This document shows, one piece after another, positions 4,820-6,828 of a DNA stretch of 64,000 nt (position 1 is its first letter; each line of letters opens with the position of its first letter). A program made the translations under genes and the position numbers. Source of the DNA: Candidatus Giovannonibacteria bacterium RIFCSPHIGHO2_12_FULL_44_22 (GTDB lineage Bacteria > Patescibacteriota > Minisyncoccia > UBA11713 > 2-01-FULL-45-33); the NCBI GenBank assembly GCA_001778695.1, contig MFHU01000003.1, forward strand, positions 75,112-139,111, written 5' to 3'. The notes under the pieces were generated by a model. It saw only the letters and a list, made by a program, of their open reading frames with translations, made no database searches and was not told the DNA's origin.

Positions 4820-6828
4820 TTAAAAGCGAGGCCAAGGAAAGAATAGAAAAATTAAAAAATCTGGTAGATAAGTATCGCTATCAGTATCATGTTTTAAATA
4901 AACTGGAAATTTCGGAGGAAGCATTGGATTTCTTAAAGCACGAATTAAAAAAACTGGAAGACGAATTTCCTAATTTGGTGACGGCGGATTCCCCGACGCA
5001 GAGAGTCGCCGGCAAGCCGTTGAAAGAATTTAAAAAAGTCAGACATCAAACCAAAATGATGTCTTTGGAAGATGTTTTTTCCGAAGAAGAATTTTCGGAG
5101 TGGGTTGATAGATTGGATAGATTAATAAAAAGCAAGCCTAATCATTTTTACCCCCACACCAAAAGTTTTGGTGTGGGGGTGTATGCCGAACCTAAATTCG
5201 ACGGCCTTGCCTTGAGTATTGTTTATGAAGGCGGTGTTTTAAAATACGCGGCTACTCGCGGAGATGGGCAAGTTGGGGAGGATGTTACGCAAAATGTCCG
5301 GACAATAGAATCTGTGCCCTTAAAAATTAGAGCTAAAGGCAGAGTGGAGGTGCGCGGGGAGGCGATAATTACAAAGAAAAATTTTGAAGCTATAAATAAA
5401 AGGCAAAAAAATAAAGGCGCGTCGCTTTATGCCAACACCAGAAATTTAGCAGCCGGGTCACTTCGCCAACTGGACCCAAAAATTACCGCGTCGCGCCGGC
5501 TGGATTTTTTTGCTTATGATTTATCGGGGGCGGAATTCAAAAATCATAGCGAGGAGCACAAGGCGCTCCGCGATTTGGGTTTTAAAACCGGCGGAGGTTT
5601 GGAAGGAATTTGCAAAAAGCCGGAAGAAGTTTTTTTGCGCTATAAAAAAATCGCGGAGCGCCGCGAAAAACTTCCATATAATATTGATGGTATCGTTGTG
5701 TCGATTGACTCCAATGATTTATTTAAAAAATTGGGAGTTGTCGGAAAAGCTCCTCGCGGAACGATAGCTTTTAAATTCGCGCCAAAAGAAACAACCACCA
5801 AAGTGGAGGATATTATCGTGCAAGTCGGGCGCACCGGCGCTTTGACGCCTGTTGCCATTTTAAAACCGGTTGAAATCGGCGGGGTCGTGGTAAGTAGAGC
5901 GACGCTTCACAACGAAGATGAAATAAAAAGATTGGGCGTGAAAATCGGCGATAGCGTGATTGTGGGCAGAGCGGGCGACGTGATCCCGGACATCAGAAAA
6001 GTTTTAAAAGAACTGCGGACGAGCCGCGAGCGGGAATTTCATATGCCCAAGCATTGCCCGGTTTGCAAAAAGCCGATTGAAAAAAAAGAAGGCGAGGTGC
6101 AGGCCAAATGCGTCAATAAATTTTGTCCGGCAATGCACAGGGAGGGGCTTTATCATTTTGTTTCCCGTAAAGCTTTTAACATTGACGGGCTCGGCCCAAA
6201 AATTTTAAACGCATTTTTGGACCACGGGCTCATACAAGATGCTTCTGATATTTTTGAATTAAAAGAAGGCGACATCGCGCCCCTGGAAAGATTCGGCGAA
6301 AAATCGGCGGAAAATTTGGTGGAAGCGATAAAATCATCCCGTAAAATTACTCTCGCTAGATTTCTTTACGCTTTGGGTATTTTGCATGTTGGGGAGGAAA
6401 CTGCGATTGATTTAGCTGAACATTTTGGATCTTTGGAAAAATTGGAGCATATGTCGAAAGAAAATTTGGAATCAATTCCGAATATCGGAGAAGTGATGGC
6501 AGAAAGCGTTTATGGATGGTTTCGCGATGAGCGCAATAAAAATTTTCTAAAAAAACTTTTAAAATATATTGATATTGAAAACCCGAAAAAGAAAAAACCG
6601 GGGAAGCTGGCCGGAAAGACTTTTGTTTTTACCGGCGAGATGGAGTCAATGAGCCGGGATGAAGCCAAAGCAAAAGTTAGGGAACTTAGCGGCGACCCGT
6701 CTGAAACCGTCAGCAAAAATACGGACTACGTTGTTGTTGGCGAGAACCCGGGCTCCAAATACGCCCGTGCCCAAAAACTCGGAGTAAAAATTATAGATGA
6801 AAAGGAGTTTTTGAAAATGATAAAGTAA
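4816..6828 (+). CDS. ligA: NAD-dependent DNA ligase
   Basis: Adenylation motif EPKFDGLAL (KxDG), OB fold, Zn-finger CPVCKK...C, HhH, C-terminal BRCT (KTFVFTG). 670 aa. Confidence 0.9.
5151..5179 (+). repeat. 29-bp perfect palindrome CCCCCACACCAAAA-G-TTTTGGTGTGGGGG inside the ligA ORF
   Basis: Read directly. It encodes [11 protein letters not shown] just before the KxDG motif. The arms differ by one base from the inverted repeats at the split tRNA (12541-12553 and 12644-12656). Confidence 0.8.

What the first reader, a model, noticed from the sequence alone, without database searches (positions are those of the whole stretch)
5151..5179. 29-bp perfect palindrome inside ligA that matches the inverted repeats flanking tRNA-Asp
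CCCCCACACCAAAA-G-TTTTGGTGTGGGGG sits in-frame in the NAD ligase gene, just upstream of the KxDG adenylation motif, and encodes [11 protein letters not shown]. By recollection of LigA sequences this looks like an insertion. The arms differ by one base from the 13-bp repeats at 12541-12553 and 12644-12656. The same hairpin-forming element therefore exists both as an empty stem-loop inside an essential CDS and as a stem enclosing a tRNA gene. This is the behaviour of a small mobile or self-propagating palindromic element that tolerates in-frame insertion, as Rickettsia palindromic elements do.
Basis: partly seen in the sequence, partly recalled or inferred. Interest (0 to 1): 0.6.

Follow-up and report, generated by a model that had tools for sequence, protein, structure and literature searches.

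The report
Mobile 29-bp palindrome inserted in ligA
The palindrome in the DNA ligase gene is a real, translated, in-frame insertion of a tiny palindromic mobile element found in several bacterial phyla, and longer copies with the same end repeats carry a miniature GIY-YIG nuclease gene, or here a spare tRNA gene sitting inside a broken tRNA gene.

Summary
**Observation confirmed.** Window 5151-5179 is a perfect 29-nt palindrome (31 nt with an A·T pair). With 4 further flanking bases it forms a 33-bp, 11-codon insertion in ligA. The insertion is absent from 57 of 59 homologues and from solved LigA structures.

- A metagenome scan found at least 120 further copies.
- Among 89 distinct copies, 49% carry identical flanking 4-mers (T-W-W-A or C..G), against 11% for mismatched partners. 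This indicates a 4-bp target duplication.
- Copies sit in frame in YjeF, MurC, Mfd, SpoU and other proteins. One identical 29-mer lies in a deltaproteobacterial gene.

**New findings.**
- The same terminal repeats flank an 84-aa GIY-YIG nuclease ORF in all six loci examined, giving units of about 290 bp. This is a candidate autonomous parent.
- The tRNA-Asp "stem" is a 126-nt segment (repeats plus a foreign-type tRNA-Asp) that replaces 5 nt in the anticodon loop of the resident tRNA-Asp.
- A relative carries the analogous tRNA-Met-in-tRNA-Met arrangement.

**Not shown.** The mobility enzyme is unproven, and no GIY-YIG copy lies in this window.

**Verdict:** a new, unusually small variant of in-frame palindromic mobile DNA. 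Interest 0.75.

The parts
4816..6828 (+). ligA (NAD-dependent DNA ligase, 670 aa), the host gene of the insertion
   Evidence: ORF. The identical protein P0001 carries precomputed Pfam hits for DNA_ligase_aden, OB, ZBD, HHH and BRCT. Matches solved LigA structures at E about 1e-70.
5147..5150 (+). Left flanking 4-mer TTTA (target-site copy)
   Evidence: The empty site in relative L001 is CATTTT|TATGCC, with one TTTA. Family-wide, only the 4-bp register gives a duplication signal.
5151..5179 (.). 29-nt perfect palindrome CCCCCACACCAAAA G TTTTGGTGTGGGGG: a hairpin-only (cargo-less) copy of repeat family A
   Evidence: Folds at -26.4 kcal/mol. The identical 29-mer occurs in L152, and about 89 distinct relatives were found in metagenome loci.
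5180..5183 (+). Right flanking 4-mer TGTA (TTTA with one synonymous change, GTT to GTG). 29 + 4 = 33 bp = 11 codons.
   Evidence: L004 keeps TTTA on both sides of its decayed copy. TTTA/TGTA also flanks the GIY-YIG units L214 and L218.
5194..5205 (+). KFDG (KxDG adenylation motif, K127), 4 codons downstream of the insert
   Evidence: Translation. Alignment to 1b04 and 4glx.
12661..12696 (-). 5' part (nt 1-36, through G34 of the anticodon) of the resident tRNA-Asp(GTC), now interrupted
   Evidence: Exact 36-nt match to the start of the intact tRNA-Asp of L001, L005 and L010.
12644..12656 (.). Family-A repeat arm TTTTGGTGCGGGG. On the tRNA strand this is CCCCGCACCAAAA, the 5' arm of the cassette.
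   Evidence: I19: 13 nt, 100% complementary, 90 nt apart.
12561..12635 (-). Complete inner tRNA-Asp(GTC), the cargo of the repeat-flanked cassette, of a foreign type
   Evidence: ARAGORN and Rfam (64.2 bits). It is 86-87% like the tRNA-Asp of distant Giovannonibacteria (L011, L012, L068). It is 79% identical to the intact native-type gene of L001/L005 and 84% to a trimmed native-type reference.
12541..12553 (.). Family-A repeat arm CCCCGCACCAAAA (the 3' arm of the cassette on the tRNA strand)
12498..12534 (-). 3' part of the resident tRNA-Asp (last 34 nt plus a 3-nt trailer)
   Evidence: Exact 37-nt match to L001. Between the two halves, 126 nt (12535-12660) replace the 5 nt TCACG.

Best explanation
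The ligA palindrome is a cargo-less, non-autonomous copy of a family of very small mobile DNA elements, here called family A.

**Anatomy.** The family is defined by 13-15-bp terminal inverted repeats, CCCCC(A/G)CACCAA(A/T)... / ...TTGGTG(C/T)GGGGG. Insertion duplicates or adds 4 bp of target, preferably TTTA/TAAA and more generally T..A or C..G.

**Why it survives in ligA.** The 29-bp hairpin form plus 4 bp is 33 bp and has no stop codon in any frame. When it lands in a tolerant loop of a protein, here just before the strand that carries the catalytic lysine of LigA, it is simply translated as 11 extra residues and kept.

**Other forms.** The same repeats also occur around cargo:
- an 84-aa GIY-YIG nuclease ORF that fills the whole space between them (unit of about 290 bp);
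- short non-coding segments;
- in this window, a complete foreign-type tRNA-Asp that sits in, and functionally replaces, the resident tRNA-Asp it interrupts.

**Shown.** Insertion polarity, multi-copy status, the cross-phylum family, the 4-bp flank duplication, in-frame copies in many proteins, and the physical association of the repeats with the GIY-YIG ORF.

**Inferred.**
- The GIY-YIG unit is the autonomous parent and its nuclease supplies the cleavage step, probably recognising the hairpin or cruciform.
- The hairpin-only copies are its MITE-like derivatives, moved in trans or left by internal deletion.
- Joining is done by host repair or ligation.
- tRNA-in-tRNA copies spread by break repair on the homologous tRNA halves.
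For: **Insertion.**
- 57 of 59 LigA homologues lack the 11 residues.
- The empty DNA site in L001 is CATTTT|TATGCC, against the filled TTTA-[29]-TGTA.
- Solved LigA structures have a gap at the same place.

**Family size.**
- 89 distinct C5..G5 copies with unrelated flanks.

**Target duplication.**
- Identical flanking 4-mers occur in 44 of 89 copies (49%), against 11% when left and right flanks of different copies are paired.
- Only the 4-bp register gives a signal.
- The consensus is T-W-W-A or C..G.

**In-frame copies.**
- Copies lie inside Pfam domain matches of YjeF/Carb_kinase, MurC, Mfd, SpoU, fructose-bisphosphate aldolase and T2SS-F, plus a TspO/MBR protein where the hairpin sits just upstream of the domain match.
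- The YjeF copy has the identical 29-mer, adds exactly 11 residues absent from all 54 other aligned homologues, and belongs to a Deltaproteobacteria/Thermodesulfobacteriota lineage.
- Length + 4 is a multiple of 3 in 47 of 89 copies (p = 1.7e-4).
- 59 of 60 short copies are stop-free in all six frames.
- Copies are depleted from long ORFs: about 24% against 67% of random positions.

**Nuclease link.**
- L133 and L211 have the repeats around a GIY-YIG ORF, confirmed as Pfam PF01541 at E = 6e-18.
- All 4 further homologues fetched from other contigs (L214, L216, L217, L218) have CCCCCACACCAAAT...ATG...stop-TTTGGTGTGGGGG with T..A or C..G flanks.
- A second GIY-YIG subgroup (L155, L118) sits between a different repeat, ATCCCGTTAGAGA. 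That repeat also has hairpin-only and other-cargo forms with direct-repeat flanks.

**tRNA cassette.**
- The outer halves match the L001 tRNA-Asp exactly and the inner copy is of a foreign type.
- The analogous tRNA-Met case is in L008.
Against: - No GIY-YIG gene lies in the 64-kb window, and the rest of this genome could not be searched.
- GIY-YIG enzymes are hydrolytic nucleases with no known strand-transfer activity, so a transposase role would be unprecedented. The ORF could be just another cargo.
- Half of the copies have non-identical flanking 4-mers.
- In the two tRNA-borne cassettes the 4-nt flanks are not duplications of the target (CCCG vs TCAT in the window; CACA vs CGAG in L008), so these did not arise by a simple cut with 4-bp duplication.
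- Four of the nine small GIY-YIG ORFs in the fetched loci have no detectable flanking repeat, and a fifth (L064) only a weak 10-nt one.
- The window itself holds only one hairpin and one cassette, so activity in this genome is not demonstrated.
- The metagenome pattern required both arms, so the palindromic shape of the hits is by construction. Flank duplication, flank diversity and insertion polarity are not.
Confidence: 0.75

Rival explanations
1. The palindromes are mobile, but they are moved by some conventional transposase encoded elsewhere whose ends match the repeats. The GIY-YIG ORF, like the tRNA and the non-coding segments, would be only a passenger between the repeats.
For: - Cargo between the repeats is variable: tRNA, 55-100-nt non-coding segments and a promoter-like segment.
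- A 4-bp target duplication with a partly symmetric target is what DDE transposases produce (established knowledge).
- GIY-YIG nucleases are not known to join DNA.
- About half of the small GIY-YIG genes lack clear flanking repeats.
Against: - No transposase gene was seen between or next to family-A repeats in 2.26 Mb of fetched loci.
- 6 of 6 members of this GIY-YIG subgroup are framed precisely by the repeats, with start and stop codons abutting them.
- A second GIY-YIG subgroup has its own repeat family with the same architecture. That is the pattern expected of an element's own gene.
Confidence: 0.17
2. The hairpin is a host-functional signal, such as a protein-binding site, an RNA processing or stability stem, or a terminator, kept by selection at each place. 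It would not be mobile DNA.
For: - The palindrome is perfect and fixed in all eight contigs of this species cluster.
- The stems flank a tRNA, where processing stems are conceivable.
Against: - Copies sit at unrelated positions inside unrelated coding sequences and in intergenic DNA of different phyla.
- They carry flank duplications and are absent from orthologues.
- The L003/L004 copies have lost the pairing while the gene persists.
- No Rfam family matches.
Confidence: 0.03
3. The palindrome arose in place, by template switching or quasi-palindrome correction during replication, from an older imperfect insert like that of L003/L004.
For: - L003 and L004 carry a decayed, imperfect version at the same codon.
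- Template switching is a known way to perfect quasi-palindromes (established knowledge).
Against: - In-place origin cannot explain the identical 29-mer in an unrelated deltaproteobacterial gene.
- It cannot explain about 89 distinct copies with the same arms.
- It cannot explain the same arms around GIY-YIG ORFs.
- At most it could explain maintenance of perfection.
Confidence: 0.02
4. The element is removed at RNA level as an intron-like hairpin, so that neither the LigA insert nor the interruption of the outer tRNA-Asp matters.
For: - The outer tRNA-Asp halves are 100% identical to the intact gene of a relative, as if still constrained.
- The long stem would bring the two halves together.
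Against: - Copies in coding-like contexts are enriched for lengths that keep the frame (15 of 23), and the hairpins are stop-free. That would be unnecessary if they were spliced out.
- The peptide PHTK.F..GV is conserved in L003/L004 although the pairing has decayed.
- In L008 the anticodon of the interrupted tRNA-Met copies is destroyed.
- No splice junction gives a canonical anticodon arm for the outer tRNA-Asp.
- Bacteria lack a known bulge-helix-bulge endonuclease (established knowledge).
Confidence: 0.03

Closest known systems
Rickettsia palindromic elements (RPEs)
   Same: Palindromic repeated DNA that inserts in frame into unrelated, often essential, protein-coding genes and is translated as extra peptide (review PMC10969869).
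   Different: - RPEs are about 150 bp, confined to Rickettsia, and have no known associated enzyme.
- Family A is 25-32 bp (or about 53 bp) with no sequence similarity to RPEs.
- It has a clear 4-bp flank duplication and occurs in CPR bacteria, in a deltaproteobacterial-type lineage, and (GIY-YIG units) in contigs labelled Elusimicrobia/Endomicrobiia.
- It shares its ends with a GIY-YIG ORF.
Palindromic GC clusters of yeast and other mitochondria (e.g. GC42; the var1/rps3 cluster)
   Same: - Short GC-rich hairpins (about 18-48 nt) in AT-rich genomes.
- Flanked by short direct repeats that look like target duplications.
- Sporadic presence or absence, occasional in-frame residence in a protein gene, merging and nesting, and transfer between species (PMC4478555).
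   Different: - The GC clusters are organellar, have AG/ACT flanks rather than T-W-W-A, and no enzyme has been linked to them.
- Here there is a candidate element-encoded nuclease and cargo-bearing forms.
MITEs and their parent insertion sequences
   Same: Terminal inverted repeats, target-site duplication, non-coding derivatives outnumbering coding copies, and shared ends between short and longer gene-bearing forms.
   Different: - Known prokaryotic MITEs are typically around 100-400 bp and derive from IS elements with DDE or other recognised transposases.
- Here the short form is essentially two repeats back to back (29 bp).
- The only gene ever seen between the ends is an 84-aa GIY-YIG nuclease, which is not a recognised transposase class (own knowledge; no paper found).
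REP / REPIN elements with RAYT transposases
   Same: 20-40-nt palindromes. Doublets form long hairpins, are non-autonomous, and are associated with a small single-domain enzyme gene flanked by the repeats (PMC3116915 and PMC3733652, listed).
   Different: - REPs carry a GTAG or CGTC tag, are extragenic, give no target duplication and go with HUH/Y1 (IS200-like) proteins.
- Family A has none of these tags, does give a 4-bp duplication, enters coding sequence, and goes with a GIY-YIG protein.
Free-standing GIY-YIG homing endonucleases (e.g. phage T4 Seg proteins, SegB in the tRNA gene cluster)
   Same: - A small GIY-YIG nuclease gene that behaves as selfish DNA.
- Association with tRNA gene clusters: GIY-YIG ORFs sit next to tRNA-Asp or tRNA-Met in L005, L009 and L012.
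- Spread with co-conversion of flanking markers would explain the tRNA-in-tRNA copies (SegB papers listed).
   Different: - Homing endonucleases are larger, with DNA-binding domains. They target one cognate site, have no terminal inverted repeats or target duplication, and leave no miniature derivatives.
- Family A sits at many unrelated sites.
Non-intron insertions in CPR rRNA genes
   Same: PMC11270868 reports that all GIY-YIG proteins found inside CPR rRNA genes lie in insertions that are neither group I nor group II introns, scattered over several sites. It also reports many short (<200 bp) ORF-less insertions. That is the picture expected if family-A-like elements also land in rRNA genes.
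   Different: That paper, in the passages retrieved by keyword search, does not describe terminal repeats, flank duplications, hairpin-only copies or protein-gene insertions. Identity with family A was not tested here.

Membership tests
Rickettsia palindromic elements (RPE) | Element of roughly 100-150 bp belonging to one of the described RPE sequence families of Rickettsia | tested here: not met
   The insert is 33 bp in a Giovannonibacteria (CPR) genome. The RPE size comes from PMC10969869. No sequence comparison with RPE consensus sequences was possible.
Rickettsia palindromic elements (RPE) | In-frame insertion into unrelated protein genes, translated with the host protein | tested here: met
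   ligA, plus YjeF, MurC, Mfd, SpoU, TspO, aldolase and T2SS-F copies. Translation itself is inferred from frame conservation, not measured.
MITE (miniature inverted-repeat transposable element) | Terminal inverted repeats | tested here: met
   Arms of 13-15 nt, and 20-25 nt in the AATT subfamily.
MITE (miniature inverted-repeat transposable element) | Target-site duplication of fixed length | tested here: met
   4 bp. 49% of copies have identical flanks against an 11% control, and only the 4-bp register gives a signal. The ligA and YjeF inserts are 29 + 4 = 33 bp relative to empty orthologues. The duplication is not met in the two tRNA-borne cassettes.
MITE (miniature inverted-repeat transposable element) | Multiple dispersed copies with presence/absence polymorphism | tested here: met
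   At least 120 stretches and 89 distinct copies. Presence or absence among orthologues is shown. Copy number within this one genome could not be counted: one hairpin plus one cassette in 64 kb.
MITE (miniature inverted-repeat transposable element) | Ends shared with an autonomous element that encodes a recognised transposase | tested here: inconclusive
   The ends are shared with about 290-bp units that encode only an 84-aa GIY-YIG nuclease. Whether that protein mobilises them is untested, and it is not a recognised transposase family.
REP / REPIN-RAYT | GTAG or CGTC tag at one end of the palindrome, extragenic location, and association with a Y1 (IS200-like) RAYT gene | tested here: not met
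   The arms begin CCCCC with no tag. About a quarter of copies lie in long ORFs. The associated ORF is GIY-YIG, not Y1.
GIY-YIG nuclease superfamily (for the ORF between the repeats in L133, L211, L214-L218) | Match to the GIY-YIG catalytic domain above the curated threshold | tested here: met
   PF01541 at E = 6e-18, 65.4 bits against a cut-off of 22.6. The nearest solved relatives are UPF0213 proteins BH0048 (1zg2) and EF2693 (1ywl). Catalytic activity was not tested.
Homing endonuclease gene (free-standing) | One cognate target site, with spread by break repair into the empty allele of the same locus | tested here: not met
   Family-A units and hairpins sit in many unrelated loci with different flanks. 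The tRNA-in-tRNA cassettes alone would fit homing, but this was not tested.
NAD-dependent DNA ligase LigA (host gene) | Ia, adenylation (KxDG), OB, Zn, HhH and BRCT domains in order | tested here: met
   Precomputed Pfam domains, KFDG at 5194-5205, and E about 1e-70 to solved LigAs over residues 3-324.

The most novel reading that the evidence does not exclude
The roughly 290-bp unit 'repeat - 84-aa GIY-YIG ORF - repeat' would be a previously unrecognised class of autonomous prokaryotic mobile element, and the smallest known. Its only protein would be a bare GIY-YIG nuclease rather than a DDE, HUH, serine or tyrosine enzyme.

Under this reading:
- The 25-53-bp palindromes are its miniature derivatives.
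- Their length and stop-free sequence make them survivable inside genes of compact genomes.
- The family crosses phylum boundaries (CPR, Elusimicrobia, Deltaproteobacteria-like).
- Cargo-swapped versions carrying a tRNA can overwrite resident single-copy tRNA genes by inserting into their anticodon loops, even into their own cargo (nested tRNA-Met in L008).
Probability: 0.4. Interest if true: 0.9.

Novelty: new variant of a known kind. Interest (0 to 1): 0.75.

Why it matters
**A possible enzyme for a long-standing puzzle.** Short palindromic repeats that live inside protein genes (RPEs, mitochondrial GC clusters) have been known for decades without an identified enzyme. Here the same terminal repeats are found both as bare hairpins and around a minimal nuclease gene. 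That gives a concrete, testable candidate for how such elements move.

**A new kind of mobile element, if confirmed.** A 290-bp element with an 84-aa nuclease would redefine the lower size limit of autonomous mobile DNA. It would also add GIY-YIG to the enzymes that drive transposition in prokaryotes.

**Consequences for CPR genomics.**
- It explains small lineage-specific inserts in essential proteins (LigA, and probably GatA and GyrB through other hairpin families).
- It explains breaks and oddities in tRNA gene calls: the interrupted tRNA-Asp is invisible to ARAGORN and Rfam.
- It may explain the unexplained short insertions in CPR rRNA genes.
- It documents sequence-identical 29-mers shared between phyla in groundwater communities.

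Tried and rejected
- **Outer tRNA as an intron-containing gene.** ARAGORN with intron options finds only the inner tRNA-Asp. Enumerating 506 possible excisions gives no junction with a canonical anticodon arm, and ARAGORN accepts almost anything, so that test is uninformative. A bulge-helix-bulge reading was tried by eye and dropped.
- **Rfam.** Nothing but three tRNAs in the window, and no family for the repeat/GIY-YIG unit.
- **Viral contigs.** The hairpin pattern hit only one high-GC phage intergenic hairpin, present twice, which is uninformative. The tRNA-sized-gap pattern hit nothing.
- **Multiple alignment of the split tRNA.** MAFFT aligned the relatives' tRNA-Asp to the inner copy, which was not useful. 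It was replaced by exact-match tests.
- **A 68-bp length difference in L087.** In the tRNA region this is a scaffold gap of Ns, not a variant.
- **Near-match arms.** Those at window 4183-4195 and at 28819, 42658 and 44944 have no partner arm and are taken as chance.
- **Literature.** Searches for the motif strings, for palindromes in CPR, and for GIY-YIG with inverted repeats or target duplications found no description of this family. TIGR-Tas arrays turned up in a search but were judged not to fit and were not tested.
- **Telomere-resolvase site, integron attC, IS200/IS605 ends and composite capture of the tRNA by two hairpins.** These were considered from known anatomy and rejected. The reasons were the odd-length dyad, the wrong arm order, the variable flank 4-mers and the absence of inner arms.
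- **Other hairpin inserts.** No clear flank duplication could be found for the gatA and gyrB inserts, so they are not filed under family A.
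Full report
**1. The observation**

Window 5151-5179 is CCCCCACACCAAAA-G-TTTTGGTGTGGGGG. With A5150 and T5180 the arms are 15 nt and perfectly complementary.

It lies in frame in a 670-aa ORF, 4816-6828 (+). That ORF is an NAD-dependent DNA ligase by precomputed Pfam domains and by the names sources give its homologues, which place the organism in Candidatus Giovannonibacteria, a CPR/Patescibacteria lineage.

The stretch encodes [11 protein letters not shown], ending four codons before K127 of KFDG.

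The two-arm pattern is expected 0.00 times in shuffles of the window. The 13-mer arm with up to 2 mismatches occurs 8 times against 1.78 expected.

**2. It is an insertion**

In an alignment of 60 LigA sequences, 57 of the 59 others (63-91% identity) lack exactly these 11 residues. The solved LigAs 1b04 and 4glx/2owo have a 10-residue gap at the same place.

At DNA level the closest relative with a long contig (L001, 87% identity) reads CAT TTT | TAT GCC. The window reads CAT TTT TA[C5...G5]TG TAT GCC. That is a 33-bp insert: the 29-nt palindrome plus 4 bp, with TTTA on the left and TGTA on the right, where TGTA is TTTA with a synonymous GTT to GTG change.

Two homologues at 77% identity (L003, L004) have an 11-residue insert at the same codon (HPHTKIFNTGV, YPNTKIFNTGV). 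Their left arm survives, their right arm has decayed by G to A changes, and L004 keeps TTTA on both sides. Whether this is one old insertion with precise losses or recombination, or the same site hit twice, is unresolved. The residues just upstream in the window resemble L003 more than the window's closest relatives, which hints at a recombination tract.

The perfect palindrome is present in all seven other contigs of this species cluster from different samples.

**3. It belongs to a large family with a 4-bp flank duplication**

I scanned metagenome contigs with CCCCRCACCAA-N(0-30)-TTGGTGYGGGG-NNY. The last three letters were chosen so that the ligA locus itself cannot match on either strand.

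- **Typical copies.** Most are CCCCCACACCAAA-(0-5 nt)-TTTGGTGTGGGGG, in contigs of 30-50% G+C from groundwater and sediments. A subfamily of about 53 nt has arms ending AATT and a conserved inner mini-hairpin.
- **Flank duplication.** Among 89 distinct C5..G5 copies, the 4-mers directly flanking the palindrome are identical in 44 (49%). When the left flank of one copy is paired with the right flank of another from the same filtered set, only 11% are identical. Registers of 2, 3, 5 or 6 bp give 0-8%.
- **Target.** The duplicated 4-mers vary: TAAA/TTTA dominate, and TTGA, TCAA, CAGG, CGAG, CCAG, CCTG and CTTG also occur. The consensus is T-W-W-A or C..G. This is the signature of a target-site duplication, and it agrees with 29 + 4 = 33 bp in ligA.

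**4. In-frame residence is a family trait**

About a quarter of copies lie in long ORFs, against two thirds of random positions in the same contigs. So the elements are purged from genes but not completely.

Seven such ORFs are real proteins. In six the hairpin lies inside the Pfam domain match: NAD(P)H-hydrate dehydratase, MurC, Mfd, SpoU methylase, class II aldolase and T2SS protein F. In the seventh, TspO, the hairpin sits just upstream of the domain match.

The peptides repeat those of ligA in one frame ([36 protein letters not shown]) or read TPTPK.LVWG / PPHQ..W.GG in the others.

The dehydratase copy (L152) has the identical 29-mer. It adds exactly 11 residues absent from all 54 other aligned homologues. 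Its relatives are named Deltaproteobacteria or Thermodesulfobacteriota, not CPR.

Length + 4 is a multiple of three in 47 of 89 copies (p = 1.7e-4): 15 of 23 in coding-like contexts and 32 of 66 elsewhere. Of 60 short copies, 59 have no stop codon in any of the six frames.

**5. The same repeats frame a GIY-YIG nuclease gene**

Looking for arm pairs further apart in the fetched loci, two of them (L133, L211) enclose 263-274 nt. On the reverse strand this is an ORF of about 84 aa. The ORF is a GIY-YIG catalytic domain (PF01541, E = 6e-18), closest among solved structures to the UPF0213 proteins BH0048 and EF2693.

A database search found 1176 relatives at E <= 1e-10. The top-ranked are mostly 84 aa and 75-90% identical, with source names from Patescibacteria, Shapirobacteria, Elusimicrobia and Endomicrobiia. 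The wider superfamily has 7,637 clusters at 50% identity with E <= 0.001.

I fetched four of these relatives on other contigs. All four read ...T..A/C..G - CCCCCACACCAAAT(0-6 nt) ATG ... stop TTTGGTGTGGGGG - T..A/C..G. Two of them have the very TTTA/TGTA flanks seen in ligA.

A second subgroup of these ORFs (L155, L118; 60% identity) lies between a different repeat, ATCCCGTTAGAGA / TCTCTAACGGGAT. That repeat in turn has a hairpin-only copy and other-cargo copies with direct-repeat flanks.

So 'repeat - tiny GIY-YIG ORF - repeat', about 270-295 bp, is a recurring architecture with at least two repeat families. The ligA palindrome is the cargo-less form of one of them.

Four of the nine small GIY-YIG ORFs in my loci show no flanking repeats and a fifth (L064) only a weak 10-nt one. 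None lies in the window.

**6. The tRNA-Asp locus**

On the minus strand:
- 12696-12661 is identical to the first 36 nt (through G34) of the intact tRNA-Asp(GTC) of relative L001; L005 and L010 share the same 36 nt.
- 12534-12498 is identical to the last 37 nt (including a 3-nt trailer) of the L001 gene.
- Between them, 126 nt replace the 5 nt TCACG.

The 126 nt are CCCG + CCCCGCACCAAAA + TTAAATAT + a complete tRNA-Asp(GTC) (12635-12561) + CTGGAAAT + TTTTGGTGCGGGG + TCATGA.

The inner tRNA has the acceptor and anticodon stems typical of distant Giovannonibacteria (86-87% identity to L011, L012 and L068). It is only 79% identical to the intact native-type gene of L001/L005, or 84% to a trimmed reference. 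So a foreign-type copy has replaced the resident one functionally. ARAGORN and Rfam do not see the outer gene at all.

A relative, L008, shows the same thing for tRNA-Met. It has a native-type 5' half, then CCCCCACACCAATT..., then a foreign-type tRNA-Met, then ...AATTGGTGTGGGGG. The structure is nested twice, at a contig end, so an assembly loop cannot be excluded. L009 has a decayed version, and L012 has a tRNA-fMet 5' fragment followed by a GIY-YIG ORF and a full tRNA-fMet.

In these tRNA cases the 4-nt flanks are not duplications (CCCG vs TCAT; CACA vs CGAG). Cognate-in-cognate insertion seen twice cannot be chance.

My inference is that once such an allele exists it spreads by break repair on the homologous tRNA halves, which is homing-like. 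Cutting of the cargo copy would then generate the nesting. How the first allele arose is unexplained.

**7. Mechanism, with its limits**

*Shown:* insertion, family, flank duplication, frame tolerance, shared ends with a nuclease gene, and cargo variability.

*Inferred:*
- The GIY-YIG protein provides cleavage. It has no DNA-binding domain, so it probably recognises the hairpin or cruciform made by the repeats, as Slx1-type relatives recognise branched DNA (established knowledge).
- Host repair or ligation does the joining.
- Bare hairpins are miniature derivatives.

GIY-YIG enzymes are hydrolases with no known strand-transfer chemistry. The alternative, that a conventional transposase elsewhere moves all of these and the nuclease is cargo, therefore remains serious (about 0.17).

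**8. Comparison with known systems**

Behaviourally this matches Rickettsia palindromic elements and mitochondrial GC clusters. Formally it meets the MITE criteria, except that the putative parent encodes no recognised transposase. It fails the REP/RAYT criteria.

A paper on CPR rRNA insertions notes GIY-YIG proteins in non-intron insertions and many short ORF-less insertions, which may be the same phenomenon.

I found no description of this repeat family, or of a GIY-YIG element with terminal repeats and target duplication in prokaryotes. The library is incomplete, so prior description cannot be excluded.

**9. Verdict**

The ligA feature itself is a passive, translated relic or copy of mobile DNA. 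The interest lies in the family it reveals.

Noticed in passing
window 7888-7917 (gatA, 7762-9159 +): A 30-bp in-frame hairpin insert, TCCGCCAGA GGGGGATCCGCA TCTGGCGGA, adds SARGGSASGG. It is absent from every GatA relative compared. A perfect 30-nt palindrome with the same arms occurs in metagenome locus L117 274-303. It has a different sequence family from the ligA element and no clear flank duplication.
   Followed up: partly
window 16218-16253 (gyrB, 15768-17771 +) and window 31341-31361 (ORF 30466-31509 +): A 36-bp in-frame hairpin insert, CCTGCCCG...CAGGCGGG, adds PARNATHSVAGG to GyrB and is absent from all relatives. A short form, CCTGCCCGTCCGGCAGGCGGG, sits in frame in another ORF. This CCYGCCYG/CRGGCRGG family recurs 15-17 times in the fetched loci. 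Its arms pair with G·T on one strand only, which hints at a strand-specific hairpin.
   Followed up: partly
L008 15323-15611 (Giovannonibacteria RIFCSPHIGHO2_02_FULL_45_13, contig end): A doubly nested structure: tRNA-Met 5' half / repeat / tRNA-Met 5' half / repeat / full tRNA-Met / repeat / 3' half / repeat. It is either self-insertion of a tRNA-carrying cassette into its own cargo or an assembly loop.
   Followed up: partly
L012 18264-18680; L005 6112-6536; L009 14302-15417: Small GIY-YIG ORFs sit directly beside tRNA-fMet, tRNA-Met or tRNA-Asp genes in the syntenic tRNA cluster of relatives. L012 has a 5' fragment of tRNA-fMet split by a CCTGCCCGC...GCAGGCGGG hairpin, followed by the GIY-YIG ORF and then a full tRNA-fMet. 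L009 has a decayed tRNA-Met half followed by CCCCGCGCCAAATTAT and a full tRNA-Met.
   Followed up: partly
window 9700-12800 versus L001 14600-14910: The tRNA cluster is rearranged relative to L001, where the order is fMet, Met, Asp, all on the + strand and adjacent. Here all three are on the - strand, and fMet is separated from Asp/Met by about 2.7 kb. That segment carries an SLT-domain gene (10202-11047) and a Fic-domain gene (11204-12076), followed by a perfect 20-nt-arm hairpin at 12415-12457.
   Followed up: no
L155 4492-4770, L118 1281-1548, L149 158-186, L027, L142, L199, L201: A second repeat family, (A/C)(T/C)CCCGTTAGAG...CTCTAACGGG, has the same architecture: a GIY-YIG ORF, other cargo, or a bare hairpin, with direct-repeat flanks such as TCAA/TCAA and ATCAAT/ATCAAT.
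   Followed up: partly
protein P0123 (122 aa, 1347-bp contig; member of the LigA cluster): A more divergent LigA fragment shares ...KPNHFYPHT and then departs (ITSIIFF) exactly inside the palindrome. This is either an assembly break or frameshift at the hairpin, or a variant allele.
   Followed up: no
L096 3033-3196 (64% G+C contig): Two family-A repeat pairs, each enclosing about 26 nt, lie 113 bp apart inside one long ORF of a high-GC organism. This is an odd context compared with the other hits.
   Followed up: no
L140 2907-3023: A family-A pair with TGAA/TGAA flanks encloses 99 nt that themselves contain a degenerate family-A-like hairpin, CCCTCACACCAAAAACTTGGTGGAGGG. This suggests elements nest into one another.
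   Followed up: no
L218 134-230: A DUF3800-V RNA (Rfam RF02964, 56 bits) lies upstream of an Eco57I-like methylase gene, on the same Endomicrobiia contig as a family-A GIY-YIG unit and a SIR2-domain gene. It is probably unrelated.
   Followed up: no
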